In this document: positions 13,163 to 31,607 of the stretch, one piece after another
Position numbering within the stretch: the stretch's first letter is position 1
How the letters are laid out: each line of letters opens with the position of its first letter
IMG/VR virus record: IMGVR_UViG_3300012665_001507
Length of the DNA stretch: 64,000 bases
Strand: one strand, 5' to 3'
From: a virus
Translations under genes and position numbers: made by a program
Notes under the pieces: generated by a model
Database searches by the model: none
What the model was told of the DNA's origin: nothing
Seen by the model: the letters and a program-made list of their open reading frames with translations, nothing else

Positions 13163-14365
13163 TTAAAGTGTGATTTTTATTCCTAACGCCAAAAATTCAT
13201 TAACATTTTTAGTAATGTGTCTATCAGTTTTAGCAACAGCAATAAGGTTACCACTATCATCAAATAACCCAACTTCACTGATTCTAGGTATATCACCAAT
13301 ATCAAATGTTGGGTTTGTTGTTGAACCGAATTCACCTCTATCAGCAATACATGTAACGCTTTGGTAAACGTTTGTTGAAACACTGTTAAACATTACAGTT
13401 GTAGCTGTTGATGCTGATTGAACAAAATTATTAACGATTGTTGGGTCGGTAATTACGGCAAACCCTTTATCTAAATAAACCATACCAACTAGTGTATCAG
13501 CAGTAACAGCTAAGTTAGAATTTGTTTGAAAATTATATGTTTGTTTATGATTTAACGAGAATGGTTTTTCAGTATTATAACCAGTAGCCCAACTCAAAGA
13601 TGCGTCACCACCATTTGGTCTCATAATATCATCAGAAACCAAAGCAGCAATATTCTCACCAAATTGATTTGTTTGAAGTGCATTATCAGCAATCAAAGTA
13701 TCTAATGTCATTAATGTATTATTACCACCCAAATATGTTGAATACATAGTGTACGTACCAGCAGATGTAGGTAATTCAAGTTTAAATGTTTTACCATCAA
13801 TACACTCACCATAGTTAGCGTTATTGATTGCAATCACAAGAATTTTTGTTGCACTAAGTGCACTCAAAGCAGTGTCAGAGTAACCACCGTTTGTGTATGT
13901 AACACCAGTATATCTTGTGTCGTCATTTGTGTTTAAAGGTAAACCAAAAGAATAATACAAATTAACCAAATTGTCAGTTGTTACGTCATTTCTATTAATC
14001 AATGATTTTGTCAAACTAGCTCCACTAACTGTAACCATACCATTAGGGATAATTTCAGATAAAATATTAATTGATTGTGAAGAAACAGGTTTTGTCAACA
14101 CACCGCTAGAATTTACAATAAGCATAGTTTTCATACCAACAGATTGTGTTGTACTGTTACTAATTGTAGAATTAGGACCAATATCACCACCAACCCCAGG
14201 AATCTCTCCCGTAGCTAGTGTTAGGTTGGTATAGTAATTAGCATCAGAATCACCAAGACTAAAAGTTTTGATTAATGCGTTATTGGTAGACACCATTTTT
14301 TGTCTACCTAGTGGAGTTAACTTAGCCGTTAACGTAAGTGTCGTTGCAGTGTTATTGTATCCCAT
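13163..14365 (-). CDS. Virion structural protein, tail-collar-fibre (DUF3751-like) type
   Basis: AKLTPLGRQKM...FSLGDSD at the N-terminus and ISEVGLFDDSGNLIAVAK at the C-terminus. Confidence 0.6.
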   Translation of the reverse strand: MGYNNTATTLTLTAKLTPLGRQKMVSTNNALIKTFSLGDSDANYYTNLTLATGEIPGVGGDIGPNSTISNSTTQSVGMKTMLIVNSSGVLTKPVSSQSINILSEIIPNGMVTVSGASLTKSLINRNDVTTDNLVNLYYSFGLPLNTNDDTRYTGVTYTNGGYSDTALSALSATKILVIAINNANYGECIDGKTFKLELPTSAGTYTMYSTYLGGNNTLMTLDTLIADNALQTNQFGENIAALVSDDIMRPNGGDASLSWATGYNTEKPFSLNHKQTYNFQTNSNLAVTADTLVGMVYLDKGFAVITDPTIVNNFVQSASTATTVMFNSVSTNVYQSVTCIADRGEFGSTTNPTFDIGDIPRISEVGLFDDSGNLIAVAKTDRHITKNVNEFLALGIKITL

Positions 14366-16500
14366 TAGAAGTCCATTGATAATTCAAGCATTATTGTGTT
14401 TCCACCAGCTAAAGGAACTGGGTTAGATAATTTACCAATACATACTAGGTTTCTATCTGTATCGTAAATACCTACCTCAGTAATTTTGATATTTGGTGGG
14501 TTTGTTGACATATCTTTGCTTCTAGTCGGGTTAGTAGTTGCATTGAACTGACTAGCGTTAACTCTAATATCAAAGATTGTTTTGTATATTGTCGCACCGA
14601 TGAATGTTGTTAAATTCCCGTAGAAGAATCTTTCATCACCGAATTGTAATTGTTCTGGTTGTGTGTTGGCTGGTAAATTCAACGCTGCAATAATACTAAA
14701 TGTAGTTGCTGAATTATCTTTTAATTTATCAATGATAAAACCAGTCGTTGTTGGTGTTTGACCTTCTAATAATTTAGGGTCAATTGTTTCACCAGCACCA
14801 CCAGTAATCGCTGTGGTTGTAAAGTCAAAAGCTTTCCATGCTCCTGGGTCTGGGCGGTCAGTTGGGTCTTGCACCATTTGATAAACCAATTTGAATTTAT
14901 CGGCATAGAAACCATAACCATCATAACCAGATTCTAATTTACGCATGTAAGGTAATAAATCTGTTTCGTTGATTCTAAACGCAACATCTTTTGCAGCCGA
15001 TGTATTGTTTGTTATTTTGATATATTCTTGACAAGACATAGATGTCGTTAAACCAGTACCTGTTGTGTTTTCTAAAATGTATGTTAAATACATTGTATCA
15101 TTAATAGCCAACACCCCAGTAGACGTACCACCAGTTGGTGCTTGTAATGTTGCACCCAATTCTGGAAGTGTCCAGTTTCTATTTGATTTGTAAGACGTTG
15201 CCGCAACAATTTCGTCATCATGAATAACACACGTTTTTAATTGTGGGTAAATTCTACCAACAACTTTAGGTGTTGATGCCGCAGCAATCAAAGTTGGGTC
15301 CTCAATTAAATCAATATATTCAATATCACTGTTGGTTATTACTTGTGTTGCACCTGTAGCTATGAATGTCATACCCATAGATGTTCCACTACCCGTAGTA
15401 CCAGAGTATCTATGGTACATTAAATCTGGCATATATAAACTTAAATATTTACCAGATGCTGAATCAGTGTAGAAAAACTCACCATATAAGTTAGAAATAG
15501 TATTATTTGTGTAGTGAATAATAGAAATAGATTTAACTACTTCGTCTGGATAGCTCATACCTGGCCCGTTACAATTAAATGTAAGTGTTTCACCAGTTGA
15601 TTGACAAAGATATTCTAAGTAAGGATTTTTAGTACCTAAGTATCTATAAGAACCAAACTTGGTATAATTTTCATATAAGTTAGTAGTTGATAACCCAGTG
15701 ATACCAGCAATGTCTTCACACCACACATTGTTCATGTTCCAAACTGGAACATCATGACATGTAATGTTTACATTCGAGTCAAAAGATAAAGTACCAGAAT
15801 CCCAATAAGCAGTGGTTGTTCCAGTAGAGATTGTTTCATAAACCTCACCACCTCTGTAAACAATAACTTGGGTTGATGCAGTTTGAGAATGCAAGTTAGG
15901 TAAATTTCTATCAACCGTTACGTAACCAGCACCAGTTGCTTGAACCTTAAACCAAAGATTTGGAAGTGCTCTACTGTTTTCATTATTTACAATATTACCA
16001 ACAGTGTCGTTTGCTAATTTAATTAACATAACATCACCAACATGAATATCGGTAGTTGTAATAGCAAAGCTAGTCCCACCAGTAAATACTGAATTTGATA
16101 CGTTAGTAAAATATGGTGTATACGTTGACCCCGTAAGTGTTGTGAACGTTGAACCAGAACGTTGAAAGAAACCTCTTTCGTCAGCTTCATTATTTACAAT
16201 AGCTTTAACAACGTTTAACACTGAACCATTTACCGCTTGAAATGGGTCACTAGCACCGTTAGGTGTTATGAATGTTTTGATGTTTGGTTGTCTATCGAAT
16301 GGTCTAAACACAGCACTAGTTGCTGATAATGTTACGTCAGTAGGGTTTGCGTCCACAATAGCTTCTCTATTGTAGTTAATTTCAGAATCACCAATCGCCC
16401 AATAGTTAAAATTTAATTTACCTTGTGCTAATTGTTCTCTACCTTTTTGTGTTAACTTTATGCTAACAAACGGACTTGTGCTTTTAATTATGTAACTCAT
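14365..16500 (-). CDS. Virion structural protein, paralog of 13163..14365
   Basis: IKLTQKGREQLA...WAIGDSE and ITEVGIYDTDRNLVCIGKL. Confidence 0.6.
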   Translation of the reverse strand: MSYIIKSTSPFVSIKLTQKGREQLAQGKLNFNYWAIGDSEINYNREAIVDANPTDVTLSATSAVFRPFDRQPNIKTFITPNGASDPFQAVNGSVLNVVKAIVNNEADERGFFQRSGSTFTTLTGSTYTPYFTNVSNSVFTGGTSFAITTTDIHVGDVMLIKLANDTVGNIVNNENSRALPNLWFKVQATGAGYVTVDRNLPNLHSQTASTQVIVYRGGEVYETISTGTTTAYWDSGTLSFDSNVNITCHDVPVWNMNNVWCEDIAGITGLSTTNLYENYTKFGSYRYLGTKNPYLEYLCQSTGETLTFNCNGPGMSYPDEVVKSISIIHYTNNTISNLYGEFFYTDSASGKYLSLYMPDLMYHRYSGTTGSGTSMGMTFIATGATQVITNSDIEYIDLIEDPTLIAAASTPKVVGRIYPQLKTCVIHDDEIVAATSYKSNRNWTLPELGATLQAPTGGTSTGVLAINDTMYLTYILENTTGTGLTTSMSCQEYIKITNNTSAAKDVAFRINETDLLPYMRKLESGYDGYGFYADKFKLVYQMVQDPTDRPDPGAWKAFDFTTTAITGGAGETIDPKLLEGQTPTTTGFIIDKLKDNSATTFSIIAALNLPANTQPEQLQFGDERFFYGNLTTFIGATIYKTIFDIRVNASQFNATTNPTRSKDMSTNPPNIKITEVGIYDTDRNLVCIGKLSNPVPLAGGNTIMLELSMDF

Positions 16501-16504
16501 ATTT

Positions 16505-16539
16505 TATAAATATCTTTTTCTTTATTTTAGTTATAAATA
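16505..16539 (-). promoter_or_regulatory. Two tandem TATTTATA motifs (16505-16512, 16532-16539)
   Basis: Both lie in the 56-nt gap upstream of the ATG at 16500. Confidence 0.6.
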
Positions 16540-16556
16540 TCTAATAGTAAATAATA

Positions 16557-17987
16557 TTAATACGAATTTATCGAATTACTTTGGATTACTACTGGAATAA
16601 TTTCACTATATGATGTGCTGTTAAGGTTATCACCACAAATAGTTGTATAATTTTTTTCATTTCTCACTCTATAGTATAGTGTCGTACCAACTGTTCCGCT
16701 GGCAACAAAACCTAAATTATAAAAACTAACACCAACTTCATAATCAGTGGTACCACTAAAATATAATGAACTAAAGGTGTCACCAGTTGAAACTTCTAAC
16801 GCAAAATAACCATTTTTAGCGGTTGGTGTTTCAGCTATACTCCACGTCACTATTGGTGTGCTTGTGTTTAACCCCATTGCAGAACCAGTTCTAGGGAAAT
16901 AAACTATTGTAATAATATCACCAACCATCAACATACCTTCAAGAATAAGTCTTTTAGGGTTAGATATTGATTGGAAAAAATCGATATTATTTGCCAAAGT
17001 AGCACCATTCAACATTACAATAACACTAGCACCATCTTGTGGTGTAACTGAAGCATAAATCTCATACTTGTCAGTTGTTGTGTTATAATAAACTTCATTA
17101 GAGCCTTGGCCATCTGTAGCACCACTAACTATTGGCGAATTAACATTTAAGTTATCACTAACCATATTATAACCACCACCAGTTGAGTAGATAACAGTGA
17201 TAATATCATCTGAGAACGTTTCACCACTCAAGAATACTACGTTACCAACAAATGAATAATCTTGATTCAAAGCCAAAACCAAACCATTTAACGTAACAAC
17301 AAAATCACCAATAACACCATTTTGGATGTTGAAGGTGGTTTGACCATTTGTAGGTATTATTACTTGTTGTCTTAATTGACCTATTTGAGCTAAGTTGCTA
17401 TTATTTTGTGTTAACACAGGAATCTCAGCTTGTTTCATTGCAATGAAATAATAATCAAATTCTTTGTCGTAAATACCATATTCTGTACCAGAAATAAATG
17501 TTGATGTATCAACAGTTTTGTTTAATTTACCCAAGAAATCAGTACACACACCAAAAGAATAGTATGGTTTAATTATGTATTCACCATCAAGAGTTAATCC
17601 ACTAGATGGGACATATTGTGTTGTTATGTTGGTGGCACTAAATGTTGAATAATCCAACGTTTCTGATTTATATACAGGCGTTGAGCTAAAACCACTAAAT
17701 ATATCTGAATATTTATAAACCTCAAATTTAAACAGTGCACTGGTATCTATAAAAGACCTAGTGTTTGCTGTGAAATCAAAAGTTAACGGAATATTTTGTG
17801 TATTGGCAGAAATAATATAAGACGTACCGCTAGTTGAACCAGTGCAATCTATTTTAGACGCACCACTAAGTGAATATTGTGGACTTTCAAAAATACAAAT
17901 ATCTGAACTCATATTGACGTTCAGAATATCTTTGTTTCTTACAGCACCATTTTCATTTTGAATATATATTGGTTCTTGATATCTCAT
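16557..17987 (-). CDS. Beta-rich virion structural protein with internal repeat
   Basis: Two VxLNGxxLAxNxD[YF]...DIIT[VI][IV]Y units; S/T/G rich; tail gene context. Confidence 0.6.
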   Translation of the reverse strand: MRYQEPIYIQNENGAVRNKDILNVNMSSDICIFESPQYSLSGASKIDCTGSTSGTSYIISANTQNIPLTFDFTANTRSFIDTSALFKFEVYKYSDIFSGFSSTPVYKSETLDYSTFSATNITTQYVPSSGLTLDGEYIIKPYYSFGVCTDFLGKLNKTVDTSTFISGTEYGIYDKEFDYYFIAMKQAEIPVLTQNNSNLAQIGQLRQQVIIPTNGQTTFNIQNGVIGDFVVTLNGLVLALNQDYSFVGNVVFLSGETFSDDIITVIYSTGGGYNMVSDNLNVNSPIVSGATDGQGSNEVYYNTTTDKYEIYASVTPQDGASVIVMLNGATLANNIDFFQSISNPKRLILEGMLMVGDIITIVYFPRTGSAMGLNTSTPIVTWSIAETPTAKNGYFALEVSTGDTFSSLYFSGTTDYEVGVSFYNLGFVASGTVGTTLYYRVRNEKNYTTICGDNLNSTSYSEIIPVVIQSNSINSY

Positions 17988-18229
17988 TAGTAATTTATTT
18001 CTAGTGTAACCATTGTTTTATTATAACTATCCTTTAACCCAAAAGATTGTGGAATAATCAAAGCAGCGGTTTCTTCTGCTCTTGTTAAGTTTTGTAAATA
18101 CCCAACAAAACCATTCAAGTTAATGTAGTCTTCTCGTTGTATTTCACCCGTAATATTAGAAATGTAACGAATATCGTCTATGACATTCGTTAACACCTCA
18201 CCTTGTATATTTTTTATAAATTGTGTCAT
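17987..18229 (-). CDS. Hypothetical protein
   Basis: 80 aa, TAATG-coupled to the next gene. Confidence 0.7.
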   Translation of the reverse strand: MTQFIKNIQGEVLTNVIDDIRYISNITGEIQREDYINLNGFVGYLQNLTRAEETAALIIPQSFGLKDSYNKTMVTLEINY

Positions 18230-18233
18230 AACA

Positions 18234-21158
18234 TTATGGTTTTCTAAAGACTGCTCTACCAGCTTTTAATAAATAAAGACCACCAGATGGCATAGATGTA
18301 TCAGCATCAGCTTGAGCATCATTATCATATGGACCGTATGTTTTAATACTTAATCTGTCAACATATGTTGCGTTAGCTACAGTACTATTGATTGCAGCAC
18401 CCAACACTATTGAGTTTAAATGACCAGCTGTGGAACCAGAACCATGTACAAAACTTGCTTCCGCACCAGCTGTTGAACCAATACCACCAGCGTGTGAATA
18501 TCTACCTTCAGTTACTGTTTGTCTTCCCTCAGCATGTGATGCTGTACCACCAGCTAACGTACTTTGACCTTCAGCATGTGATGCTTCACCAGCAGCTTGT
18601 GTACCATAACCTTCAGCATGTGAATTATTACCAGATGCTAGCGTTTCAGAACCTTCAGCATGAGAGTATTGTCCACTAGCTATTGTAAGTTTACCTTCAG
18701 CGTGTGACATTATACCACTTGCTAATGTGTTTTGACCCTCAGAGTGACTATATGTTGTTGTTGCTGATGTAGCCCAACCTTCAGCGTGTGAATATTGTCC
18801 ACTAGCTACTGTACGATAACCTTCAGCATGACTACCAATACCAGAAGCAGTTGTACCAGAACCTTCAGCATGTGACATTATACCACTAGCGATTGTTTGA
18901 TAACCTTCAGCGTGACTAGCAATAGCACTAGCAGTTGTTCCAGAACCTTCAGCATGTGAAGCTTCGCCAGAAGCTATTGTTAAGATACCTTCAGCATGAG
19001 AACCGTCACCCGTTGCAGTACCACCAGATACCCAAATATCTGGTTCAAATGGGTTTAAAACGTCTATAAATTTACCACCTTCAGCGTGTGAACCATTACC
19101 TATTGCACGTGTATTTATACCTTCAGAGTGACTCGCATAAGCTCTAGATTGTGTTCCATATCCTTCGGCATGCGATGTTAAACCACTTGATATTGTTCCA
19201 GACCCTTCGGCATGAGACGAATGTCCAACGGCTATTGTGTTATTACCTTCAGCATGTGAATTAAACCCACTAGCTAATGTAAATGAACCTTCAGCGTGAG
19301 CATTTAATGTTGTTGCTGATGTTGAAAGACCTTCAGCGTGAGAGGCTTCACCAGTTGCATATGTTAATTTACCTTCAGCGTGTGATGCTAGTCCATTAGC
19401 TATTGAACCTTCACCTTCAGCATGTGAATAAGAAGAATTGGCCTGTGTTTGGAAACCTTCTGCGTGACTAGCAACATCAAATGCTATTGTTTCAACACCT
19501 TCTGCATGACTTCCTTGCCCTAAAGCTGTACCACCAGAAAAGTATGTACTTATTTTTGCATTATACATACCACCTTCAGCATGTGAGTAAGAACCAGACG
19601 CTAGTGTTTGCCAACCTTCAGCATGTGAACCACTTCCGCTGGCTATTGTTCCTTCACCTTCAGTGTGAGAAAATTCTCCACTAGCTAGTGTGTTATGACC
19701 TTCAGAGTGAGCCCCATTACCAGAAGCAATTGTAACATCACCTTCAGCATGAGATACATCACCAGATGCTAAGGTATCTTTTCCTTCAGCATGACTGACA
19801 TAACCACTGGCTCTTGAATAATAACCTTCAGCATGACTTGCCAATCCAGATGCCAGTGTTTTTTGACCTTCAGCATGACTTGCGTCAGTTGTTGCTGATG
19901 TAGCCATTGGTGAACCATATATATCGTCACCACCACCTTCAGCGTGTGAATACGCACCTAAAGCATAGTTATATTTTCCTTCAGCATGACTTGCTTGACC
20001 TTCAGCTATTGTTTCATGCCCTTCAGCGTGACTTACTTCACCACTAGCTAGTGTTTGATAACCTTCAGCATGACTAGCAATAGCACTAGCAGTTGTTCCA
20101 GAACCTTCAGCATGAGTTGCCTCACCACTAGATTGTGTCCCATTACCTTCAGAGTGAGAAAAATCACCAATCGCTGATGTTCCAATACCTTCAGCGTGAG
20201 CTGCTTGACCACTTGCTAGTGTGCTTGAACCTTCAGAGTGAGCTGCCTCACCAATTGCTTGTGTTGTGTTACCTTCAGCATGAGAATAATCACCACTAGC
20301 TATTGTATTAGGACCTTCAGCGTGAGCCACTATACCGCTAGCTACTGAATAAAACCCTTCAGCGTGTGAATATTCACCACCAGCTATTGTGTTAAAACCT
20401 TCAGCGTGTGATGTTACACCTGTTGCTATTGTTTCTTGACCTTCAGCGTGTGAGTAAGCACCACTAGCAAGTGTTTGGTATCCTTCAGAGTGAGATATCA
20501 CACCAGATGCAATGTTTTGTCTACCTTCAGCGTGACTATAATTACCACTAGCTACGTTAGATGTACCCTCAGCATGGCTTGAATCACCGTTCGCAATATT
20601 AAACGACCCTTCAGCATGGGCATACTGTGTTGTTGCTGATGTTCTATAACCTTGGGCATGACTAGCAGCACCAGAGGCCAATGTATTGTTACCATAAGCG
20701 ACAGCATAGTTACCTGTTGCATTTAATCCAGTGCTATTTATTGCCTTTATTGAACTAGTCCCAGTTGTACCAGAAACCCAATATTGTGTTGGAGTTGTTG
20801 AGCCCGTGTTAAATCCACTAACCGTAAATGTACCACCTGTGTTATTGGTAAAAGTTGCTATACCAGAGTTATAAGTACCACCTGTTACTCTAATATCAGT
20901 TGGTGCTGTATATCCTGTATAGTATCCATTTACAGTAAATGTACCACCAGTGTTGTTGGTAAAAGTTGTGACACCGTTTGAATAGGTACCACCAGTAACT
21001 GTTACATCAGTAGGAAAACTTATATTGTTCAAAACTTGTTGAATCGTAGTTTTATAAGAACTACCATTGGGGTCTTGTGATTGGTCGTTTACTAATACAA
21101 TGTGTATTAAATCATTCAACCCAACTGATGGGGCTATAGTTCTACTAGTTAATTTCAT
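18234..21158 (-). CDS. Tail fibre/adhesin with YadA-head-like 14-aa SHAEG repeats
   Basis: About 50 xxTxASGxxSHAEG units preceded by two TGGTY..G..TFTNNTGGTFTV units. Confidence 0.8.
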   Translation of the reverse strand: MKLTSRTIAPSVGLNDLIHIVLVNDQSQDPNGSSYKTTIQQVLNNISFPTDVTVTGGTYSNGVTTFTNNTGGTFTVNGYYTGYTAPTDIRVTGGTYNSGIATFTNNTGGTFTVSGFNTGSTTPTQYWVSGTTGTSSIKAINSTGLNATGNYAVAYGNNTLASGAASHAQGYRTSATTQYAHAEGSFNIANGDSSHAEGTSNVASGNYSHAEGRQNIASGVISHSEGYQTLASGAYSHAEGQETIATGVTSHAEGFNTIAGGEYSHAEGFYSVASGIVAHAEGPNTIASGDYSHAEGNTTQAIGEAAHSEGSSTLASGQAAHAEGIGTSAIGDFSHSEGNGTQSSGEATHAEGSGTTASAIASHAEGYQTLASGEVSHAEGHETIAEGQASHAEGKYNYALGAYSHAEGGGDDIYGSPMATSATTDASHAEGQKTLASGLASHAEGYYSRASGYVSHAEGKDTLASGDVSHAEGDVTIASGNGAHSEGHNTLASGEFSHTEGEGTIASGSGSHAEGWQTLASGSYSHAEGGMYNAKISTYFSGGTALGQGSHAEGVETIAFDVASHAEGFQTQANSSYSHAEGEGSIANGLASHAEGKLTYATGEASHAEGLSTSATTLNAHAEGSFTLASGFNSHAEGNNTIAVGHSSHAEGSGTISSGLTSHAEGYGTQSRAYASHSEGINTRAIGNGSHAEGGKFIDVLNPFEPDIWVSGGTATGDGSHAEGILTIASGEASHAEGSGTTASAIASHAEGYQTIASGIMSHAEGSGTTASGIGSHAEGYRTVASGQYSHAEGWATSATTTYSHSEGQNTLASGIMSHAEGKLTIASGQYSHAEGSETLASGNNSHAEGYGTQAAGEASHAEGQSTLAGGTASHAEGRQTVTEGRYSHAGGIGSTAGAEASFVHGSGSTAGHLNSIVLGAAINSTVANATYVDRLSIKTYGPYDNDAQADADTSMPSGGLYLLKAGRAVFRKP
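18484..20680 (-). repeat. Coding 42-bp-period repeat array (SHAEG)
   Basis: ccttcagc(a/g)tg recurs every 42 bp, with three longer units. Confidence 0.9.
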
Positions 21159-21174
21159 TTCTTTTTCTTTTATC

Positions 21175-21182
21175 TATAAATA
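21175..21182 (-). promoter_or_regulatory. TATTTATA candidate late promoter of the fibre gene
   Basis: 16 nt upstream of the ATG at 21158. Confidence 0.6.
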
Positions 21183-21184
21183 TA

Positions 21185-21499
21185 TTATGCTATTAAAATA
21201 AGACCCGTTTCTTCGTTTAAATAAAACACATTTGTCTTTAAATTTGTTCTTTCACCAATCATCGATTCAATATTAGGTTTTTCATTACTTAAAACAATAA
21301 CATCATAATCTGAAAATTCATCCCAAAACCCATGATAGTGACTACCAAAAACAAAAACGGGTACATCACCCAATACCTCAAAAACCACTTGTTTTATCAG
21401 TCTAAAATTTTCTTGTCTTTCCAACGGTAAATCCTCAAAGTTTTTTAATTGACCTCTGAATTCTCTTTCACGCCCTTTATGATGAACTATTCTTATCAT
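21185..21499 (-). CDS. Minimal nucleotidyltransferase (Pol-beta superfamily, MNT-like)
   Basis: VFVFGSHYHG....SDYDVIV matches hGS-x9-10-DxD. Confidence 0.75.
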   Translation of the reverse strand: MIRIVHHKGREREFRGQLKNFEDLPLERQENFRLIKQVVFEVLGDVPVFVFGSHYHGFWDEFSDYDVIVLSNEKPNIESMIGERTNLKTNVFYLNEETGLILIA

Positions 21500-22575: not shown

Positions 22576-22586
22576 TTTTTTAATTA

Positions 22587-25500: not shown

Positions 25501-25856
25501 TCGAAGTCAACAACCAAAGAACATTTTTCGTTGTCTTGAAAATAAAAAATAGTTCCATCATTACCTTTAGGGTTCAACACAATTTTAAATGGTTGATTAT
25601 CTGCACAATCTATGCTAGATTTGTCAGACCATCTACATTTTTGAGCGTCTAAATCATAATAGTATGGTTCGCCTGTGATTTCAGCCAAAACATTACAACA
25701 TTGTTGTGAAACTTGTGCTGGTGATGAAATACCGTTACTATTAGAGATGTACACAGATATTGTACCGTCTGGATTTTTAACCAAACCGTTTTGTGCTGTT
25801 ACTTCACTCCAAAATTTCCTACACCCTTTGATTATGTCTGCTAGGTTTATTCCCAT
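22587..25856 (-). CDS. Large Cys-rich baseplate/tail protein
   Basis: 1089 aa with coiled-coil segments, YWVDIIEQVIPATTIW motif and C-terminal YCCPDC domain; tail context. Confidence 0.6.
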   Translation of the reverse strand: MGINLADIIKGCRKFWSEVTAQNGLVKNPDGTISVYISNSNGISSPAQVSQQCCNVLAEITGEPYYYDLDAQKCRWSDKSSIDCADNQPFKIVLNPKGNDGTIFYFQDNEKCSLVVDFDYLFKLDCEKLSETLSQTSFADPALHSQIIKLEEQIAEQTVKCEEITTHLNYLLDQYNKTSYSITCDNFPATPPVVVIGQDAAVEPREPLPTDTIKPTQTQKEPFTRTGFNGGLAPFSFPKIKYISVNFCLTTDGITVWQNILGTNRYQAFLNGDPLSYTCAEVINIYNQNQELLSIAKKVEPLIVDCKTPFGTKTGIKNEIDTVIIEQANCEKILTGLKSELDSLLSQQQALLSGCDSPIAVLENLSVSMSIDVVEANGDLTTAYEYNFFPSIGTGNLYNYLVSHPTNSGFFVCGEPSANESWASGCTPLSYPELSPQTQTETNNVDEMNVSACLKIRDYILQTLFNQSDLASQTNGQTTFNNSLAPTILSSAWSHYTTLIDDVDVINMIANKKIKLSLNIKNSCGDFCVLIDSIALTKQCVDVDSTSLFVSQSPGFNLTRIVDNKKSWLNNTSLVNREFDIKHVNGFNAIRQTDYDVFDERLVINTKEIDLDINIASAVEYDVWCYLLDNPCLLTGVTYCDPCIACGDKNYQDDECFVFQDLNVYDFMDNASNNVQLFSQSYCCGDNKIDFNSLFTTDLSTIKTIDNFKNLLVSELINVKNRKTISGYPTLKALYERYLNSLNYCGTKSSAFNYYTMDEFANLIGDYWVDIIEQVIPATTIWGSVKIYTNTIFDQQKFKYKEYSSLFGGNPFQCLNVLSPINGISGQCQTVDVMTTVISVPKEGELKLKPIYNHSDKICIAQMNWGSEFIGTVSIDDGTGIQQPYANLCDPTVPPPPVECGIDPLKYFIERVVECDNLFDLLNEGLFLPNCDYCCPDCNDYVIGSTDKYLEYLGIFGGDNPCCFNYGVDDNRLEDLELYVPSILPTNEIHNGYNVGTGCTGTTFVTGLDLLETKTSDYSEILNLGIMEQSTINGSSGLSTIVNELSGLDSNQVYDFMSTLLDNGLVITCKDGTIRFMSITNYIILNGGL

Positions 25857-25869
25857 TTTTATATTTTAT

Positions 25870-25877
25870 TATAAGTA
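25870..25877 (-). promoter_or_regulatory. TACTTATA variant of the late motif
   Basis: 13 nt upstream of the ATG at 25856; one mismatch. Confidence 0.4.
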
Positions 25878-25893
25878 TCCTTTTAATTGTTTA

Positions 25894-28800
25894 TTAACAC
25901 TCTGGTAGTGTATTAAAATTAATAATATTTGTAACCACACCGTTATTAACTTGGATTACATATTTTTGGTTTAATTGTAAACCAGTATTTGTTGTGCTAT
26001 TAACGATAGTTACATCAATTGAATAATTACCGTTAAGTGTATCATATGGTGCAGCACCTAAAACATTTGACGTATATAATTGAGTACCCACGACTATCGG
26101 TGTGAAACTCCACGGCAATGGTGTAGGCGAACCTAAACTTACTGGTAAGTTATACAACGGAGATGTAGGGAAAAGTGTTTTACATTTCACAGCTGATGGT
26201 GATTCCAAATTAAATGGAAAATCATATGTGTCAGTACCTTTAGTTGCAACAACTTTACTTAAAATTCTATATTGAATCGTTGGACTAGTTTTTGTTGGCC
26301 AATTAAAATTACAACAATCACCTTTATTAGCTCTGTTTTCAAACAAAGTTACTAACGTTTGATAGTTTTGTAAACCATATGTCGTTAATTTACAACCAAC
26401 ACCAACTTCGTTGGTAAATGGGTCCACAATATTTGTTACAGGTGTTGTCCAACCAATTGGACATACTGACGCATCTGGTAAAGCTACTTTTTTAATTCCG
26501 ACACCATAAAGAGTGGTAAACGATAAAAATGTACCGTTATCTAAATAAGCTGGTTCTTTATTCAAAAACCAATTACATGATGCACTACAACCACAATCAT
26601 TTCTAAAACAACAAGCATAACCACTTTCAACATTACCTGTTACTGGGTCAACAACATCGGTGTAAACTGATGTTCCGTTTAACGCTTTACAACACTCTCT
26701 ATCAGTAAAAATAGATTGTCTAATAACATTTTGACCATTTAAAACATAATTACTACCATCTTTATTATATTGATAATACTCGAACACATAATAACAGTAT
26801 CTAAATCTTGTTTTGGTGCAAATCCTAAGGTTACTACAAGGTTTTGCTTGTGGTTTTTCTATTTTTTCAACACAAATACTTAAAGCATCATCACCAAAAC
26901 CACACGGACAACCACATGCGTTTAAAACTTCTTGGGGTAATGGGTCGTTTACTATTTCAGCTGTATAAACAATACAATCACTTAAGTTTGTACCATCAGA
27001 ATTAACAACATCAACATATGTATCACCAGTATAATCAGTGATTTGACCTAAGTCATAGTTTATAAATAAATTTGTTGACCCACTAGCCACTGTTTCACCT
27101 GTAATTGTTACAGCTGAGAAACTAGGGATAAGTGTTCTTAATTGGTTAATGTATTTATTACCACCATCATATGGTCCAACATGCGGGTTGTTACCTGTTA
27201 AAATATCTATTGTTGCACCACTACCACCAGTTTCTCTGTACCAAAGACCATCAGCTTGAAAATACATATCTGGATTGTCTTCAAAGAATCTAGGGTAACC
27301 ATCACTATCGATTGGATATAAATTCAAGTTAGTGTCTAAATCGTTTAAACTTAACAATGTTTGAAATAATTCAAGGTCAATAGGTCCATCAGCCAAATAA
27401 ATATACTCATTAAATTCGATAAGACCTTTTGGTGTACCAATAAAATTAAGTAAAAATTCAATTGATTTTCTAGCACCTTTAGATTTCCATATCCATGGTG
27501 AGTTTAAAATTATTCTTCGCCACATTTCAACATCTGCCTCGACAGGTGTTAAGCCAACTTCTTGACCAGCATATGTTGATTTTGAAGTATTAACGTAGTT
27601 TTTTAAAAGGTTATTTTCTAAAATAGATGAGACCAAATCCCAACCCAAAACACCAGCTAAATCTTTTAAGAATTTATCTGGCATGTTATCTTGTTTGTTA
27701 TATGTAACAACGTTTGCAAATGAAATACTAGTAATAAATGTGTTTATTTCATCGTAAGAAATACCATAAATATTTAATACTTTGTTAACTTTTTGACCAG
27801 AAGTGTCCATGTGTTCTTCAGCCAAATGAACAGGTGTCGTATCAAAATCAGAAATTGATTCTGAGACTAAAAATCTGTTCATTAAATTACTGTTGGTTAA
27901 ATCACTGTTATTGGCTATGTTTAGTAATCCAGTAGCATAAGTAATATACTCACCGCTATCAAAATCAATATTATAACCGTCAGAAACTGGCCATGTTATA
28001 TTTTTGTCAACGTATAAAATAATACCATCATCTGAAATTATTGGTGAATTAAAAGTAGCTCTATATTTTGGAAAAGTTTGTCTATTTAATAAATAACTTT
28101 CAAAATTATTTAACCCATTGAAAAATAAATTTTCATTTATTTTATTAGGTTTAATATGGTAATTAATTGTTGTTGGTTGACCAGAAAATACTGGACCTTT
28201 AACTTCAAAATAGATATAATCATTTGTTAAATCAGTTGAACCAGTAAAACCTATAACACTATATTCTGTGTTGTCTCTTAAAATGACATATGATTTATAA
28301 TTAACCGTTAAGTTTCTCATATCATTTCCTTCATTAAAAGTGTCAGCAATTGTACCGTTTTTTAAATAATTTATATTAAATTTGTTATCTATTAACGTTG
28401 TGTTAACACTAAATGTTGAAGTGTCAGAAATTATATCATAACTATAATTAGTGTAAGTATCCTCAATAATAGATACACCTATGTTGTTAGTGGTAAATGG
28501 AGATAAAAATAATGACGCTGGCCATTTAGTGATTATGTCTTCTAAATTAACACGAACAAATTCGGTTAAAGAACCAAACATAGCGTAATACTTTAATTTA
28601 CTTTTGTCTAAATTAAGTATCACACCAGCATTATCTTTTAAAAGAGCTTGTGTTTCTTCAACAGTTAAAACTAAAGTATCAAGTGAATAATATTCAGAAA
28701 ATTTACCAGAATTGTAAGACTTATCTTTTTTGGGGTCCATGTTGGTGGTGATGGAAAAATTACCCATAGTAAATAAAGGCGTACCACCTTCACTTGTCAG

Positions 28801-28899
28801 TTGGACACCAACTAAATCTGGGCTAAAATTTCTATACTCTATGTTACCATTGTAGATTTCTTTTTTTACATAGCCAGCTACTTTAATGTTATCACTCAT
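25894..28899 (-). CDS. Baseplate wedge protein with P2 gpI/T4 gp7-like domain and Cys-rich C-terminus
   Basis: MPDKFLKDLAGVLGW...WRRIILNSPWIWKSKGARKSIEFLLNFIG fits the gpI-like PxxxLxxLAxxxG...KGTxxxI pattern. Confidence 0.6.
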   Translation of the reverse strand: MSDNIKVAGYVKKEIYNGNIEYRNFSPDLVGVQLTSEGGTPLFTMGNFSITTNMDPKKDKSYNSGKFSEYYSLDTLVLTVEETQALLKDNAGVILNLDKSKLKYYAMFGSLTEFVRVNLEDIITKWPASLFLSPFTTNNIGVSIIEDTYTNYSYDIISDTSTFSVNTTLIDNKFNINYLKNGTIADTFNEGNDMRNLTVNYKSYVILRDNTEYSVIGFTGSTDLTNDYIYFEVKGPVFSGQPTTINYHIKPNKINENLFFNGLNNFESYLLNRQTFPKYRATFNSPIISDDGIILYVDKNITWPVSDGYNIDFDSGEYITYATGLLNIANNSDLTNSNLMNRFLVSESISDFDTTPVHLAEEHMDTSGQKVNKVLNIYGISYDEINTFITSISFANVVTYNKQDNMPDKFLKDLAGVLGWDLVSSILENNLLKNYVNTSKSTYAGQEVGLTPVEADVEMWRRIILNSPWIWKSKGARKSIEFLLNFIGTPKGLIEFNEYIYLADGPIDLELFQTLLSLNDLDTNLNLYPIDSDGYPRFFEDNPDMYFQADGLWYRETGGSGATIDILTGNNPHVGPYDGGNKYINQLRTLIPSFSAVTITGETVASGSTNLFINYDLGQITDYTGDTYVDVVNSDGTNLSDCIVYTAEIVNDPLPQEVLNACGCPCGFGDDALSICVEKIEKPQAKPCSNLRICTKTRFRYCYYVFEYYQYNKDGSNYVLNGQNVIRQSIFTDRECCKALNGTSVYTDVVDPVTGNVESGYACCFRNDCGCSASCNWFLNKEPAYLDNGTFLSFTTLYGVGIKKVALPDASVCPIGWTTPVTNIVDPFTNEVGVGCKLTTYGLQNYQTLVTLFENRANKGDCCNFNWPTKTSPTIQYRILSKVVATKGTDTYDFPFNLESPSAVKCKTLFPTSPLYNLPVSLGSPTPLPWSFTPIVVGTQLYTSNVLGAAPYDTLNGNYSIDVTIVNSTTNTGLQLNQKYVIQVNNGVVTNIINFNTLPEC

Positions 28900-28907
28900 T
28901 TTTTATC

Positions 28908-29831
28908 TTAGATTGTTGTTATATTATTGAATGTTTTGTTGAAATCGATACTAGCTCTTTCTTCTCTAACCTCGAACAATGGTTTACCTGTAAATTTATC
29001 TTTAATTTCATACAAGTTGTATTGTTTGTAAATGTCATTGTTAAAGTTGTAGATAGTGTAAATACCGTCTTCAAGACTTTTTGTTTGATTACCAAACAAC
29101 GCAAATGCAAGTGTTTCAACATCATGTTGAACCATTTCAACCTCAATCATGATTGGATTGAAGTACGTGTTTGTGATTATCACCTGTTGGTTTGGTTGAC
29201 CAATAAATGGCAACGCATTAGGTTTAACATTTGATGCAGAAGCTGGTGACACAGTACAAAATGTAAGTGTTGAGTTATCGTTAAACCTGTAACGAATAGC
29301 TTTTTGATTTGAGTTAGTAAGGTTTTGATTTACTGGTTCAGCTCTATTATTAGATGTAATAACTCTAAAAAAATTATTTAACTTTGCATCAGCGGCTGTT
29401 GTGTTAGTGTTTAAGTATTCAACTCTGTAACCAACTAAACCATCATTTTCAAATCTATTTAAAAATTGTGCTGGGATGTTTGACATATCAAAAACTAACC
29501 CTTTAATATCTGGGTATGCTGATAAAACACCAACATCAACAATACTTGTTCTAATTTCAATCGGTTTGATTATTATAGTGTAAAAACCTTTCGCACCAAA
29601 TGTTGCCACTGGTAATTTAAGAGTGTACATACCACCAAAAACTTCAAAACCAGTCACGTTTGATTGGCTTTTATTTGGGTTATCTATTTTAATTAAAACC
29701 TGTGTTGGGTCTAATTTAGTTAATGTTGTATCACCAATAGTATCTCTAGATGGGGTAAAATGATAAAAAATCTCTACATCATCTGGTGAAATATCTGCTG
29801 GTCTTACTATTCCGTATGTTCCTGTTGCCAT
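28908..29831 (-). CDS. Putative virion structural protein
   Basis: 307 aa, beta-rich, inside the baseplate cluster. Confidence 0.6.
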   Translation of the reverse strand: MATGTYGIVRPADISPDDVEIFYHFTPSRDTIGDTTLTKLDPTQVLIKIDNPNKSQSNVTGFEVFGGMYTLKLPVATFGAKGFYTIIIKPIEIRTSIVDVGVLSAYPDIKGLVFDMSNIPAQFLNRFENDGLVGYRVEYLNTNTTAADAKLNNFFRVITSNNRAEPVNQNLTNSNQKAIRYRFNDNSTLTFCTVSPASASNVKPNALPFIGQPNQQVIITNTYFNPIMIEVEMVQHDVETLAFALFGNQTKSLEDGIYTIYNFNNDIYKQYNLYEIKDKFTGKPLFEVREERASIDFNKTFNNITTI

Positions 29832-29880
29832 TCTTTTTGTTTTTATTTAATATAATCTTTTTTTTAAAAAAGTATAATTT

Positions 29881-30753
29881 TTATTGTTTATTTATTTTAT
29901 AAAATCCGTTTCCATATCTTGTTAATTCAGAAATATTACCAATTTCTGAAAGTCTTAGATGCATATCTAGCACACTAGTAGCACCTCTATCTATAAATAC
30001 ATCGCTTTGTACTTCTGGTGGAGAAATTATACCAAATAAATATTCTTCTTTGGTTAAAGCCGATAACGATACATTTGTTTCGTTCCAACCCTCACCAATA
30101 AATCTAAATGAAGTTATTGGTATTATCGTGTCAACACCGTTAATCATTAAGGTTGTTGTGCCACTGTAATCTTTATATTGGATACCAGTTGTTTGTGTGT
30201 TTGTACCTAAATTAACGTTATTTTCCGTATCAAAAACATAAATCTTAGGTTCACCCATTGATTTAATTCTATCAACACCCATTACGGTTAAATTATTATA
30301 ATTCACATACGTTTCTGTTGCCGTATTAAAGTTTATTCTAAATTGGTCGGTTGATTTATATGATTTAACATCTTCAATCTTACTATCAGTGTTACCAGTA
30401 ATTGGTAAATTACCAAAAACATAATAATCAGATTCTGTTGAATTTGGTAATCTAAGTGTTATCTTATCCGTACCACCAACATTCGTTAATGTTTGAGGCA
30501 TTGCACCAGTCATAAACGGGAAAGTATAACCTAACGTATTTAGTTTAGAAACCAAAACACCATAATCAACAACGCTATGTGCTTTGTCATTTTTGATAAA
30601 TTCCGAATCGATAAATAACCCCATATCATCAACATTTTGGGTTAATAAAACATTCAAATAAAAAGTAGAAGCAGTAATAGTTCCCCATTTGGCACTACCA
30701 TTACTTCTATCTATACTATCTTCTAGTAATATTTTTCTTTTAATTATCTCCAT
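29881..30753 (-). CDS. Putative virion structural protein
   Basis: Start moved to MEIIKRK at 30753 (TAATG coupling with the upstream stop); C-terminal PEVQSDVFIDRG. Confidence 0.6.
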   Translation of the reverse strand: MEIIKRKILLEDSIDRSNGSAKWGTITASTFYLNVLLTQNVDDMGLFIDSEFIKNDKAHSVVDYGVLVSKLNTLGYTFPFMTGAMPQTLTNVGGTDKITLRLPNSTESDYYVFGNLPITGNTDSKIEDVKSYKSTDQFRINFNTATETYVNYNNLTVMGVDRIKSMGEPKIYVFDTENNVNLGTNTQTTGIQYKDYSGTTTLMINGVDTIIPITSFRFIGEGWNETNVSLSALTKEEYLFGIISPPEVQSDVFIDRGATSVLDMHLRLSEIGNISELTRYGNGFYKINKQ

Positions 30754-31607
30754 TAGGTTGCTTTTATTTGATACAATGTAACCTTGCATGTGTTACTATT
30801 GTAAATAACGTTATTAGGGCCACTAATACCTGTGTTACCATGGTATGTGTTATCTATTTCATAATAATACCCTGTAAGTGTTCTAGTCATCTTATATCTT
30901 GTATATAGTTCGTGAACCAACTTATCGATTGGTTGAGCAATATTTTTAACCATAAGATTTACCGATTTACCAGTTTTAGCGTTTTTAAAAGTAGCCCTCA
31001 TGTAGATATATTTTGATTCACCAATATCTAAACTATCTTTGTAATCATATAAATGGAAACCTTCAGCAAAACCTCTAGGGTTAAGCAAAGGATTTTCCAC
31101 AACAAAATTTACTGGAATTTGAGAAACATCTACTGGTTGGCCAGGTATTCCATTTGTTGCTGAAATTGGTAAATAATCGGTTGAGTTTAAATTAGCGTAA
31201 AGCGTTAAAAACGTAACTAGTTTTTGTGTCAAAGGATTATCACTATCGTAAAAAGATAGGTTCAAAAATGTTTGCTTAAAACTATTTTTTCTAAATTTTA
31301 TATCATCGTTATCAAACCCAATAAGACCATAATAATCAACATAATTATTTGACGCATTAAATAATTTAATATCATAAATTATCTTATCAACATGATTATT
31401 TTGTAAATCCAAAGGTAAAAACCTAACCCTATCATAATCCAATATTGGGTTAATTGCGTTTTCTATTTCAGTTTGAACAAAAACTCGTTCAATAAGTTCA
31501 GCATTGTCTACAGTTTGAAAATCCATGTCAATAGGAAAACTAATAGTAGTAGCAGTTGCACCACTAGGTAGTGTTGATAGGTTTATTTGGAATTTATTAA
31601 CAAACAT
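30753..31607 (-). CDS. Putative virion structural protein
   Basis: 284 aa in a coupled operon of baseplate genes. Confidence 0.6.
   Translation of the reverse strand: MFVNKFQINLSTLPSGATATTISFPIDMDFQTVDNAELIERVFVQTEIENAINPILDYDRVRFLPLDLQNNHVDKIIYDIKLFNASNNYVDYYGLIGFDNDDIKFRKNSFKQTFLNLSFYDSDNPLTQKLVTFLTLYANLNSTDYLPISATNGIPGQPVDVSQIPVNFVVENPLLNPRGFAEGFHLYDYKDSLDIGESKYIYMRATFKNAKTGKSVNLMVKNIAQPIDKLVHELYTRYKMTRTLTGYYYEIDNTYHGNTGISGPNNVIYNSNTCKVTLYQIKAT

What the first reader, a model, noticed from the sequence alone, without database searches (positions are those of the whole stretch)
13163..31607. A [ST]-[GA]-x-T motif pervades many unrelated tail proteins: candidate sequon for a virion modification system
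Seen: by hand count, 16557..17987 has 8 exact matches in 476 aa (TGST, SANT, TANT, SGLT, SGET, SGAT, TGDT, SGTT), 14365..16500 has about 12 in 711 aa, 13163..14365 has 6, 25894..28899 has 6, and 21496..22575 and 29881..30753 have 4 each. In the SHAEG fibre, TSATT occurs four times, and all three loop insertions end in SATT or SGGT. I found only about 0-1 per protein in NrdA, Rad50 and the helicase. A rough composition-based expectation for the 476-aa protein is about 1. Inference: one short motif shared by non-homologous, surface-exposed proteins behaves like a recognition site for a phage-directed post-translational modification (O-glycosylation is the obvious candidate) or a decoration-protein docking site. 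It differs from the host D-[ST]-[AILVMT] O-glycosylation sequon.
Basis: partly seen in the sequence, partly recalled or inferred. Interest (0 to 1): 0.78.

Follow-up and report, generated by a model that had tools for sequence, protein, structure and literature searches.

The report
Sequon-like Ser/Thr-Gly/Ala-x-Thr tag on phage tails
The outer tail, spike, fibre and sheath proteins of this uncultured jumbo phage and its whole clade carry the four-residue pattern Ser/Thr-Gly/Ala-x-Thr about four times more often than chance; it behaves like an address read by something phage-specific, most plausibly a conserved pair of phage sugar-transferase genes, but no modification has been shown.

Summary
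Across nine mutually unrelated ORFs (13163-31607, repetitive fibre excluded), [ST][GA].T occurs 46 times against about 12 expected under local shuffles (z about 10). TGxT and SGxT rank first and second of 8,647 patterns in an unbiased scan. The signal needs the residue order and all three positions together. It is not explained at DNA level or by repeats.

All 80 related contigs are enriched (2.3-5.9x). In a complete 368-kb relative only tail, fibre and sheath ORFs are enriched; the other 361 ORFs are neutral. T4, Flavobacterium phage immuto, Mel-JY01, LR756508 and two further outgroups are negative.

Sites lie mostly in loops. They keep hydroxyl-small-x-hydroxyl chemistry (G exchanges with A, not N/D; T with S, not V/I) and exclude K/R nearby.

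A GT2 gene with an adjacent GT-B-like gene, plus a GT2_5 gene, occurs in every motif-positive record except one fragment, and in none of six motif-negative genomes. This amounts to roughly one evolutionary event. The GTs also neighbour nucleotide-metabolism genes, and no chemistry is known.

My best reading is an O-glycosylation sequon (about 0.45). The main rival is a structural turn.

The scan has already noted this motif on other jumbo-phage genomes.

The parts
13163..14365 (-). 400-aa spike/fibre-like protein with 6 motif sites (exp 1.8). It shares N- and C-terminal segments with the 711-aa protein.
14365..16500 (-). 711-aa spike-like protein with 12 motif sites (exp 2.6-4.1). Its N-terminal ~95 aa resemble a tailspike particle-binding domain. 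It has more than 1,800 homologues, which average 11.5 sites.
16557..17987 (-). 476-aa protein made of a string of Ig/FN3-like beta-sandwich domains, with 8 motif sites (exp 1.3-1.8).
18234..21158 (-). 974-aa SHAEG/YadA-head-like fibre with a 14-aa repeat. It has 20 motif sites (exp 7.7-8.4), TSATT four times, and three loop insertions that end in SATT or SGGT.
21496..22575 (-). 359-aa Cys-rich virion-operon protein with 4 sites (exp 1.1).
22587..25856 (-). 1089-aa structural protein with 4 sites (exp 1.3-1.5), borderline on its own.
25894..28899 (-). 1001-aa structural protein with 6 sites (exp 1.6), five of them clustered at residues 560-627.
29881..30789 (-). 302-aa structural protein with 4 sites (exp 0.6-0.9).
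30753..31607 (-). 284-aa structural protein with 2 sites (exp 0.3-0.5).
28908..29831 (-). 307-aa ORF inside the block with no motif site (exp 0.5), so not every block protein carries the tag.
38383..40200 (-). gp6/Baseplate-J-like wedge protein with 1 site (exp 0.7). It anchors the block as baseplate-distal genes of a T4-type myovirus.
21185..21499 (-). 104-aa NTP_transf_2 (minimal nucleotidyltransferase) gene inside the block. I considered it as a possible writer and rejected it, because it is present in only 14 of 80 related loci.

Best explanation
[ST]-[GA]-x-T is usually preceded by a hydrophobic residue or Ala, and K/R are excluded at -1, at x and two residues after the Thr. I read it as a short linear recognition tag on the outward-facing tail parts (spikes, fibres, baseplate rim, sheath) of a clade of uncultured jumbo myoviruses of 350-380 kb, whose hosts are probably Flavobacteriia/Bacteroidota. 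The most likely reader is a phage-encoded cytoplasmic O-glycosylation system. Its conserved core would be a small GT2 enzyme (~265 aa), the adjacent ~380-aa GT-B-like protein, and a GT2_5-domain enzyme. These would attach sugar to one or both hydroxyl residues of the tag in exposed loops, many of them just after beta-strands, while the virion parts are made late in infection. Shown here: the motif is real, order-specific, clade-specific, confined to outer tail proteins, and held at individual sites by purifying selection as a chemical class. The GT module co-occurs with it. Inferred: that the GTs act on protein, that the tag is their acceptor site, and that the purpose is to coat or stabilise the tail or tune adsorption.
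For: The enrichment is robust and order-specific. It is not at DNA level, because the ACT/AGT bias before GGT is a general codon-context effect. It is not driven by repeats or paralogy. It holds across the clade: 80 loci give 3,572 observed vs 1,031 expected, with every locus at 2.3-5.9x. In the complete relative G002 only 9 of 370 ORFs are enriched, eight of them tail, fibre or sheath and one a 1214-aa ORF of unknown function, and the rest total 105 vs 88. The motif is absent from T4 (19 vs 17.9), immuto, Mel-JY01, LR756508, G009 and G010, so it is not a generic fibre or Ig-fold feature. Host SprB adhesins show only 1.4x, from their own repeat signature. At 22 conserved sites, position 1 is S/T in 97%, position 2 is G 64%/A 32%/S 3% with N/D near 0, and position 4 is T 87%/S 11% with V/I below 1%. 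This is chemistry, not positive-phi turn geometry or beta-branching. K/R are excluded at -1, x and +5 only for the full motif. Of the motif residues, 81% lie in loops, and half of the sites start right after a strand. The related genome has six GT-like genes within 14 kb, conserved across the clade. The GT2(265)+386-aa pair and the GT2_5 gene are present in the motif-positive G002, G006 and G007. The 386-aa gene, with a Pfam GT2 hit beside it, is also present in G001 and G003-G005. None of these genes is found in six motif-negative genomes, even though those carry other GT2 or GT25 genes. The 386-aa protein resembles Glycos_transf_1 proteins by language-model features. In G002 the GT gene string has only the late-type promoter motif upstream, divergent from the first fibre gene.
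Against: There is no chemical evidence of any modification, and no cultured relative exists. The co-occurrence is confounded by phylogeny and amounts to about one gain. G008 is motif-positive but has no GT hit; it is only a 34%-complete fragment. The GT cluster is interleaved with dUTPase/dCTP-deaminase-like, GMP-reductase-like, HD and PhoH genes, which fits DNA glycosylation equally well. The major capsid protein is only about 2x enriched and not significant, unlike the mycobacteriophage precedent. The loop preference is no greater than for S/T/G-rich control patterns. The motif excess lies in conserved and subclade-level sites, with no excess of sporadic gains, which a structural element would also produce. 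Several motif Gly residues are invariant. The GT genes could not be verified in the window's own genome. Reading the promoter motif as 'late' is an inference.
Confidence: 0.45

Rival explanations
1. Intrinsic structural element: a strand-capping hydroxyl-small-x-hydroxyl turn that stabilises the beta-sandwich and beta-helical modules from which this clade's tail proteins are built. It would be inherited or convergently reused within the clade, with no trans-acting reader.
For: Sites sit in loops, often directly after beta-strands with a hydrophobic residue at -1. Several motif glycines are invariant. The excess is entirely in conserved or subclade-fixed positions. The motif occurs only in beta-rich proteins.
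Against: Homologous or analogous tail proteins of six other myoviruses, T4 Hoc and host Ig/SprB adhesins lack it. No extended sequence context or domain register is shared. G exchanges with A but not N/D, and T with S but not V/I. K/R exclusion at solvent-facing positions is specific to the full motif. The motif also appears in the sheath and in YadA-like fibres, which are different folds.
Confidence: 0.25
2. Docking or assembly motif: the tag is bound non-covalently by a clade-specific partner, such as a fibre or spike assembly chaperone, a cement or decoration protein, or a neighbouring tail subunit.
For: The same features that argue for a trans-acting reader apply here: clade specificity, occurrence in unrelated families, restriction to outer tail parts, and a local charge rule.
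Against: No candidate partner was identified. There are 4-20 scattered sites per protein at non-equivalent positions, which is many for a stoichiometric binding partner. The requirement for two hydroxyls points to chemistry. The only gene set found to co-vary with the motif is a GT module.
Confidence: 0.12
3. A sequon for a different covalent modification of Ser/Thr, such as phosphorylation, nucleotidylylation or acylation, by a phage or host enzyme other than the GT module.
For: The dual-hydroxyl requirement. A nucleotidyltransferase gene lies in the fibre operon and a GNAT gene is nearby.
Against: The nucleotidyltransferase is present in only 14 of 80 related loci. No kinase or other writer was found to track the motif. 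A host enzyme would not explain why Flavobacterium phage immuto is negative.
Confidence: 0.08
4. Statistical or compositional artefact of a motif chosen after looking at the data in S/T/G-rich, repeat-containing proteins.
For: The motif was chosen by eye. The proteins are rich in S, T and G, and one of them is highly repetitive.
Against: Local shuffles, ordering controls, half-motif controls, an unbiased scan of 8,647 patterns, exclusion of the repetitive fibre, independent replication in 80 relatives, and negative outgroups.
Confidence: 0.03

Closest known systems
Virion O-glycosylation of mycobacteriophages by phage-encoded glycosyltransferases (Freeman et al. 2023, Cell Host Microbe; known to me here only through its citation in PMC12619734)
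   Same: Phage-encoded GT genes in the structural part of the genome are proposed to decorate the phage's own virion proteins in the cytoplasm.
   Different: In mycobacteriophages the glycans are reported at the C-termini of the capsid and tail-tube subunits. Here the candidate sites are internal loops of spikes, fibres, baseplate-rim proteins and the sheath. The capsid is barely enriched, a defined four-residue tag is involved, the hosts are probably Bacteroidota, and nothing has been shown chemically.
Bacteroidota general O-glycosylation, sequon D-[ST]-[AILVMT]
   Same: A short Ser/Thr-centred sequon in the same probable host phylum.
   Different: The host sequon is not enriched in these proteins (21 vs 21.8). 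The host system acts in the periplasm, while these are cytoplasmically assembled virion parts. The motif itself is different.
'Moraphages', large aquatic phages of predicted Flavobacteriia hosts (PMC12619734)
   Same: A T4-like core (gp25, gp6, sheath, Gp23-type capsid), a sigma factor, PhoH and dUTPase, and four core orthogroups of putative glycosyltransferases with unknown target. The capsid tree neighbours Rhodothermus phage RM378, as here.
   Different: Moraphage genomes are reported at 200-307 kbp, whereas complete genomes of this clade are 353-380 kb. I did not test whether the lineages are the same. That paper reports no motif.
Cytoplasmic multi-site O-glycosylation of beta-rich surface proteins, such as autotransporter heptosylation by Aah/TibC or flagellin glycosylation (from my own knowledge, a lead only)
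   Same: Many Ser/Thr sites in exposed loops next to short beta-strands of a folded beta-rich protein are modified in the cytoplasm before export or assembly.
   Different: Those systems have no strict linear sequon, use unrelated GT families, and their targets are bacterial rather than viral.
ST-turn / beta-turn structural motifs
   Same: A hydroxyl residue followed by Gly at the end of a strand.
   Different: Turn motifs tolerate N/D in place of Gly and do not require a second hydroxyl at +3 or K/R exclusion. They are not clade-specific.

Membership tests
Phage virion O-glycosylation system (mycobacteriophage type) | Phage-encoded glycosyltransferase genes in or near the structural gene region | tested here: met
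   Met in relatives only. G002 has six GT-like genes at 102-116 kb, between the capsid gene (91 kb) and the tail genes (118 kb). The cluster is conserved across the clade. It could not be checked in the window's own genome.
Phage virion O-glycosylation system (mycobacteriophage type) | Glycans demonstrated on virion proteins by mass spectrometry or glycan staining | not testable with these tools
   There is no cultured relative; the best capsid identity in GenBank phages is 44%.
Phage virion O-glycosylation system (mycobacteriophage type) | Acceptor sites at the C-termini of capsid and tail-tube subunits | tested here: not met
   Sites are internal loops of spike, fibre, rim and sheath proteins. 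The capsid has 3-4 sites vs 1.6 expected, not significant.
Phage virion O-glycosylation system (mycobacteriophage type) | Presence of the candidate acceptor tag co-varies with the GT genes across genomes | tested here: inconclusive
   The match is perfect in 7 motif-positive and 6 motif-negative records, with one fragment uninformative. Phylogenetically this is about one event.
Bacteroidota general O-glycosylation (D-[ST]-[AILVMT]) | Enrichment of the host sequon in the target proteins | tested here: not met
   21 observed vs 21.8 expected, z = -0.2.
N-glycosylation (N-x-[ST]) | Enrichment of the sequon | tested here: not met
   78 vs 74.4, z = 0.5.
Generic beta-turn / ST-turn structural motif | Gly position interchangeable with Asn/Asp (positive-phi residues) | tested here: not met
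   At 22 conserved sites, G is 64%, A 32%, S 3% and N 0.3%.
Generic beta-turn / ST-turn structural motif | Comparable frequency in proteins of the same folds in other organisms | tested here: not met
   T4 baseplate and fibres give 1.06x and Hoc 1 vs 2.5. Immuto gives 1.4x, Mel-JY01 1.25x over all ORFs (0.86x in S/T/G-rich ORFs), LR756508 1.1x, G009 1.05x and G010 1.3x. Host SprB adhesins give 1.4x.
T4-type contractile-tail baseplate/fibre module | gp25 and gp6/Baseplate-J homologues immediately upstream, and fibre or spike folds downstream | tested here: met
   GPW_gp25 matches at E 4e-11. The wedge protein matches annotated baseplate wedge proteins. The 711-aa N-terminus matches the tailspike anchor domain. 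The 476-aa protein matches the phage KP1 baseplate cup and Ig/FN3 strings. The fibre has YadA-head repeats.

The most novel reading that the evidence does not exclude
A widespread clade of uncultured freshwater and environmental jumbo phages encodes a sequon-directed O-glycosylation system. Its core is a GT2 plus GT-B-like pair with a GT2_5 enzyme, which reads hydrophobic-[ST]-[GA]-x-T in exposed loops and sugar-coats the tail spikes, fibres, baseplate rim and sheath. This would be the first defined protein-glycosylation sequon of a bacteriophage, and glycosites would become predictable from sequence in hundreds of metagenomic phage genomes.
Probability: 0.4. Interest if true: 0.85.

Novelty: new variant of a known kind. 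Interest (0 to 1): 0.62.

Why it matters
Phage virion glycosylation is known from one group, the mycobacteriophages, and no linear sequon has been defined there. If this tag is a true acceptor site, phage tail glycosites could be predicted directly from sequence across a large, abundant and uncultured clade of environmental jumbo phages. That would give the unexplained core glycosyltransferases of such phages a target. It would also bear on how tail fibres resist proteases, avoid aggregation or tune host recognition. If the tag turns out to be structural, a clade-restricted four-residue signature under selection in unrelated proteins is still an unusual case of sequence 'dialect' that would need explaining. 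The hypothesis can be tested directly with three or four cloned genes.

Tried and rejected
1. Composition or low-complexity artefact: rejected by local shuffles of 10-50 aa and by ordering and half-motif controls.

2. Look-elsewhere effect: rejected, because TGxT and SGxT rank first and second of 8,647 patterns.

3. DNA-level signal: the ACT/AGT-GGT codon skew is a general wobble-T-before-GG context effect, seen in non-motif TG dipeptides and outside the block.

4. Internal repeats or periodic spacing: the enrichment holds without the SHAEG fibre, and there is no preferred spacing.

5. Deep paralogy: BLASTP finds only two weak local pairs, and hhalign gives probability 0.1%.

6. Generic property of tail, fibre or Ig folds: rejected by T4, immuto, Mel-JY01, LR756508, G009 and G010.

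7. Borrowed host SprB/T9SS adhesin 'dialect': only 1.4x, from the repeat's own signature, and the phage's SprB-bearing 1516-aa family gives 0.95x.

8. The nucleotidyltransferase in the fibre operon as writer: present in only 14 of 80 loci.

9. 'Any GT2' as correlate: the motif-negative immuto and Mel-JY01 have GT2 genes. GT25, the TOD1-like gene and the 440-aa GT2 are restricted to the core clade, or present in a motif-negative genome, so they are not the shared reader.

10. Selection for bulk site density (a glycan-shield model): sporadic sites are at control level.

11. Using the 10 kb downstream of the wedge gene as a motif readout: too weak even in the clade (1.5x), so I used whole records instead.

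12. Retrieving the window's own 141-kb contig to look for its GT genes: not possible.

13. Literature search for a precedent for this motif: none found. The Freeman et al. paper is not held.

Full report
CONTEXT. The window is part of a low-GC (30-37%) T4-type myovirus, with every long ORF on the minus strand. Transcription runs from replication genes (gp32-like, RecA/UvsX-like, DnaB-like helicase, NrdAB) into gp25 (40208-40594) and a gp6/Baseplate-J-like wedge (38383-40200). It then passes through a run of large ORFs down to 13163, and after that a primase and a PD-(D/E)XK nuclease. The first is position. The second is the YadA-head/SHAEG fibre. The third is two AlphaFold models: the 476-aa protein is a string of Ig/FN3-like beta-sandwiches whose top PDB match is a phage baseplate protein, and the first ~95 residues of the 711-aa protein match the particle-binding domain of tailspikes AP22 gp54, LKA1 gp49 and phi297 gp61.

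Against whole-protein shuffles, the ORFs from 13163 to 31607 are individually enriched, with one exception (28908-29831, 0 sites). ORFs outside the block are not: for example the 2128-aa VanY-domain protein has 0 vs 2.9 and the 1427-aa protein 2 vs 2.5.

I excluded the repetitive fibre and shuffled only within 10-50-residue windows, which preserves local composition. Nine ORFs then pool to 46 sites against 11.5-14.2 expected, z 8.8-11. Other orderings of the same residue classes give z of 3.2 or less, apart from T[GA].[ST], which overlaps TGxT. The signal is a true three-way dependency. [^ST]G.T (25 vs 31), [ST]G.[^ST] (49 vs 52) and [ST][^GA].T (74 vs 84.5) are all unenriched, and adding a preceding hydrophobic residue gives 17 vs 2.6.

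The motif was picked by eye, so I scanned all 8,647 observed single-residue patterns of the forms abc, ab.c and a.bc. TGxT and SGxT came first and second in the block (Poisson p 8e-7 and 9e-6), and neither is among the top 25 in the other ORFs. The ACT/AGT preference at motif position 1 is a general wobble-T-before-GG codon context, seen equally at non-motif TG dipeptides and outside the block, so I found no DNA-level cause. The proteins are unrelated by BLASTP, except for the termini of the 400-aa and 711-aa proteins and a 179-residue segment shared by the 359-aa and 1089-aa proteins. The 476-aa and 711-aa family profiles are unrelated.

IT IS A PROPERTY OF A WHOLE CLADE. The 711-aa protein has more than 1,800 homologues at about 53-96% identity, on contigs up to 380 kb. 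Four related IMG/VR records are complete genomes of 353-380 kb. Fifty homologues carry on average 11.5 sites against 2.6 expected. Over all same-strand ORFs of 80 related loci the total is 3,572 vs 1,031, and every locus lies between 2.3x and 5.9x. The variable fibre genes that differ between relatives are also enriched (18 vs 2.1, 17 vs 3.2).

Nine ORFs are enriched. Four are in the tail block. The others are a 526-aa protein next to the sheath (16 vs 3.5), the sheath itself (9 vs 3.4), a 1214-aa ORF, and two YadA-head fibres. The other 361 ORFs total 105 vs 88.4. The Gp23-type capsid protein is only about 2x enriched and not significant.

IT IS NOT GENERIC. T4 baseplate and fibre proteins give 19 vs 17.9. 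Flavobacterium phage immuto gives 32 vs 23 and Microcystis phage Mel-JY01 9 vs 7.2 in their tail modules. The 484-kb phage LR756508 gives 3 vs 2.6. Whole-genome scans of these four and of two further wedge-gene relatives (G009, complete; G010) find no tail or fibre ORFs enriched; each genome has at most one nominally significant ORF. Unbiased scans of their tail modules do not surface the motif. Host-type SprB/T9SS adhesins, 103 proteins in all, show 1.42x, due to the repeat's own VSGGTAPY and LSAGTYTV signatures. The host O-glycosylation sequon and N-x-S/T are at expectation in the block.

ANATOMY OF THE TAG. Across 2,347 distinct sites there is no extended conserved context and no preferred spacing. 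Position -1 favours F, L or A and excludes K, D and R. K/R are also excluded at x and two residues after the Thr. This exclusion (about 0.01) is specific to the full motif, since half-motif controls show 0.03-0.08.

At 22 sites conserved in at least 40% of homologues, position 1 is T 51%/S 46%. Position 2 is G 64%/A 32%/S 3%, with N and D essentially absent. Position 4 is T 87%/S 11%, with V and I below 1%. The requirement is therefore hydroxyl-small-x-hydroxyl. It is not the positive-phi glycine of a tight turn, and not beta-branching.

In the two models (mean pLDDT 76-77), 81% of motif residues lie outside regular secondary structure, and half of the 20 sites begin within two residues of a strand end. 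The loop preference is no higher than for other S/T/G-rich patterns, so this fails to refute exposure rather than proving it.

Motif sites are retained in homologues below 75% identity more often than control patterns (0.46 and 0.42, against control means of about 0.28 and 0.18). The whole excess over controls lies in conserved sites (10.3 vs 1.4) and subclade-level sites (10.1 vs 2.8). Sporadic sites are at control level (4.1 vs 3.8). So individual sites are kept by purifying selection. I found no sign of selection for bulk density.

CANDIDATE READER. The window has no glycosyltransferase. The nucleotidyltransferase at 21185-21499 is present in only 14 of 80 relatives. All five large related records carry three Pfam GT2 hits each.

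In G002 the region 102-116 kb holds a GT2 (265 aa), a GT25, a TOD1/MUCI70-like protein, a GT2 (440 aa), a GT2_5+GT4 fusion (558 aa) and a GT4-like protein. This region lies between the capsid gene (91 kb) and the first fibre gene (118.4 kb). The cluster is 10-20 kb from the capsid gene in all five genomes, and the fusion gene is conserved at 47-100% identity on 69 contigs.

Two promoter-like motifs emerge de novo in G002. ATATTTATA lies about 25 nt upstream of the fibre, sheath and gp25 genes. TACCTTTG fits the Bacteroidota TAnnTTTG -7 element. The GT string has only the first kind upstream, divergent from the first fibre gene, and none of the second. This hints at late expression, but it is inference.

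MY OWN CO-OCCURRENCE TEST. Earlier notes of this scan claimed such a link on other genomes. I treated that as a lead and tested it independently. I recovered a graded series of relatives with a wedge-protein alignment and fetched whole records.

- Motif-positive: the core clade, G006 and G007 (48% wedge identity), and G008 (34% identity; a 34%-complete fragment).
- Motif-negative: G009, G010, immuto, Mel-JY01, LR756508 and T4.
- The GT2(265), the adjacent 386-aa protein and the GT2_5 domain are present in G002, G006 and G007. The 386-aa gene lies directly beside a Pfam GT2 hit in G001 and G003-G005. By language-model features the 386-aa protein resembles Glycos_transf_1 proteins, which is a lead only.
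- None of these genes is detectable in the six negative genomes, although immuto and Mel-JY01 have other GT2 genes and LR756508 has two GT25 homologues.
- GT25, TOD1-like and GT2(440) are limited to the core clade, so they are not the shared reader.
- G008 is uninformative.

The association is perfect, but it probably reflects a single gain at the base of one lineage, so it is consistent with the hypothesis and does not prove it.

WEIGHING. I find a purely structural explanation hard to square with clade specificity across unrelated families and folds, the substitution chemistry, and the motif-specific charge rule. These features are typical of short linear motifs read by a trans-acting factor, and the only gene set found to track the motif is a glycosyltransferase module.

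Against this, the GT cluster is interleaved with dUTPase/dCTP-deaminase-like, GMP-reductase-like, HD and PhoH genes, so DNA glycosylation is a live alternative use. The thymidylate-synthase-family gene in the clade does not settle that question. In addition, the capsid is not clearly tagged, no relative is cultured, and nothing chemical is known.

I therefore put the O-glycosylation sequon at about 0.45, an intrinsic structural element at about 0.25, a non-covalent docking motif at about 0.12, another modification at about 0.08, and artefact at about 0.03.

RELATION TO WHAT IS KNOWN. The closest known system is mycobacteriophage virion glycosylation. It is cited in PMC12619734 as glycans at the C-termini of capsid and tail-tube subunits, and I could not read the original. 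This case differs in targets, in site type and in having a linear tag. The clade resembles the 'moraphages' (PMC12619734: predicted Flavobacteriia hosts, four core GT orthogroups of unknown target), but those are reported at 200-307 kbp, and I did not test whether the two lineages are the same.

The same motif has already been noted by this scan on several other jumbo-phage genomes. This window is therefore a further, independently verified instance, not a first sighting.

Noticed in passing
13163-14365 and 14365-16500: The 400-aa and 711-aa proteins share an N-terminal ~45-residue signature (KLT..GR..L ... GDS..NY) and a C-terminal ~57 residues (32% identity). The 711-aa N-terminus matches tailspike particle-binding domains. 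This suggests two different spikes docking through one adaptor type.
   Followed up: partly
21496-22575 and 22587-25856: The N-terminal 166 residues of the Cys-rich 359-aa protein are homologous to the C-terminal 902-1074 of the adjacent 1089-aa protein (27% identity, E 2e-11). This looks like a local duplication or module exchange.
   Followed up: no
window, upstream of 40594, 21158, 16500, 62531; relative G002 genome-wide: There are two nearly exclusive promoter-like motif classes. ATATTTATA lies about 25 nt upstream of the gp25, fibre, spike and sheath genes (late-like). TACCTTTG matches the Bacteroidota TAnnTTTG -7 box (early-like). In G002, 49 and 43 ORFs carry them, and only 3 carry both.
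   Followed up: partly
21185-21499: The minimal nucleotidyltransferase (NTP_transf_2) gene inside the fibre operon is accessory: a homologue is present in only 14 of 80 related loci.
   Followed up: partly
51529-57915: The 2128-aa protein has a VanY D-Ala-D-Ala carboxypeptidase domain at residues 1771-1865 and no motif site (2.9 expected). It may be an internal or ejected cell-wall-degrading virion protein.
   Followed up: no
L093 (relative G002, 96-116 kb): Six GT-like genes are interleaved with dUTPase/dCTP-deaminase-like, GMP-reductase-like, HD-phosphohydrolase, PhoH and sigma-factor genes in one tightly packed same-strand string. DNA hypermodification by glycosylation is a possible alternative role.
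   Followed up: partly
L099-L103 (sheath genes of relatives): The sheath proteins carry three motif sites spaced 13-14 residues apart in one segment (for example TGLT, SAVT, TGGT at 217-247), conserved across genomes. This is possibly an exposed insertion domain.
   Followed up: no
L083 (Flavobacterium phage immuto tail module): The tail module of this distantly related cultured Flavobacterium phage also contains H.EG/HAE (SHAEG-type) fibre repeats and shows a mild TGxT excess (12 vs 5.6), although overall it is motif-negative.
   Followed up: no
33411-37961: The SprB-like repeats of the 1516-aa baseplate-region protein have hundreds of homologues in Bacteroidota T9SS/gliding adhesins (25-33% identity). 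This supports a Bacteroidota host and exchange of adhesin modules.
   Followed up: partly
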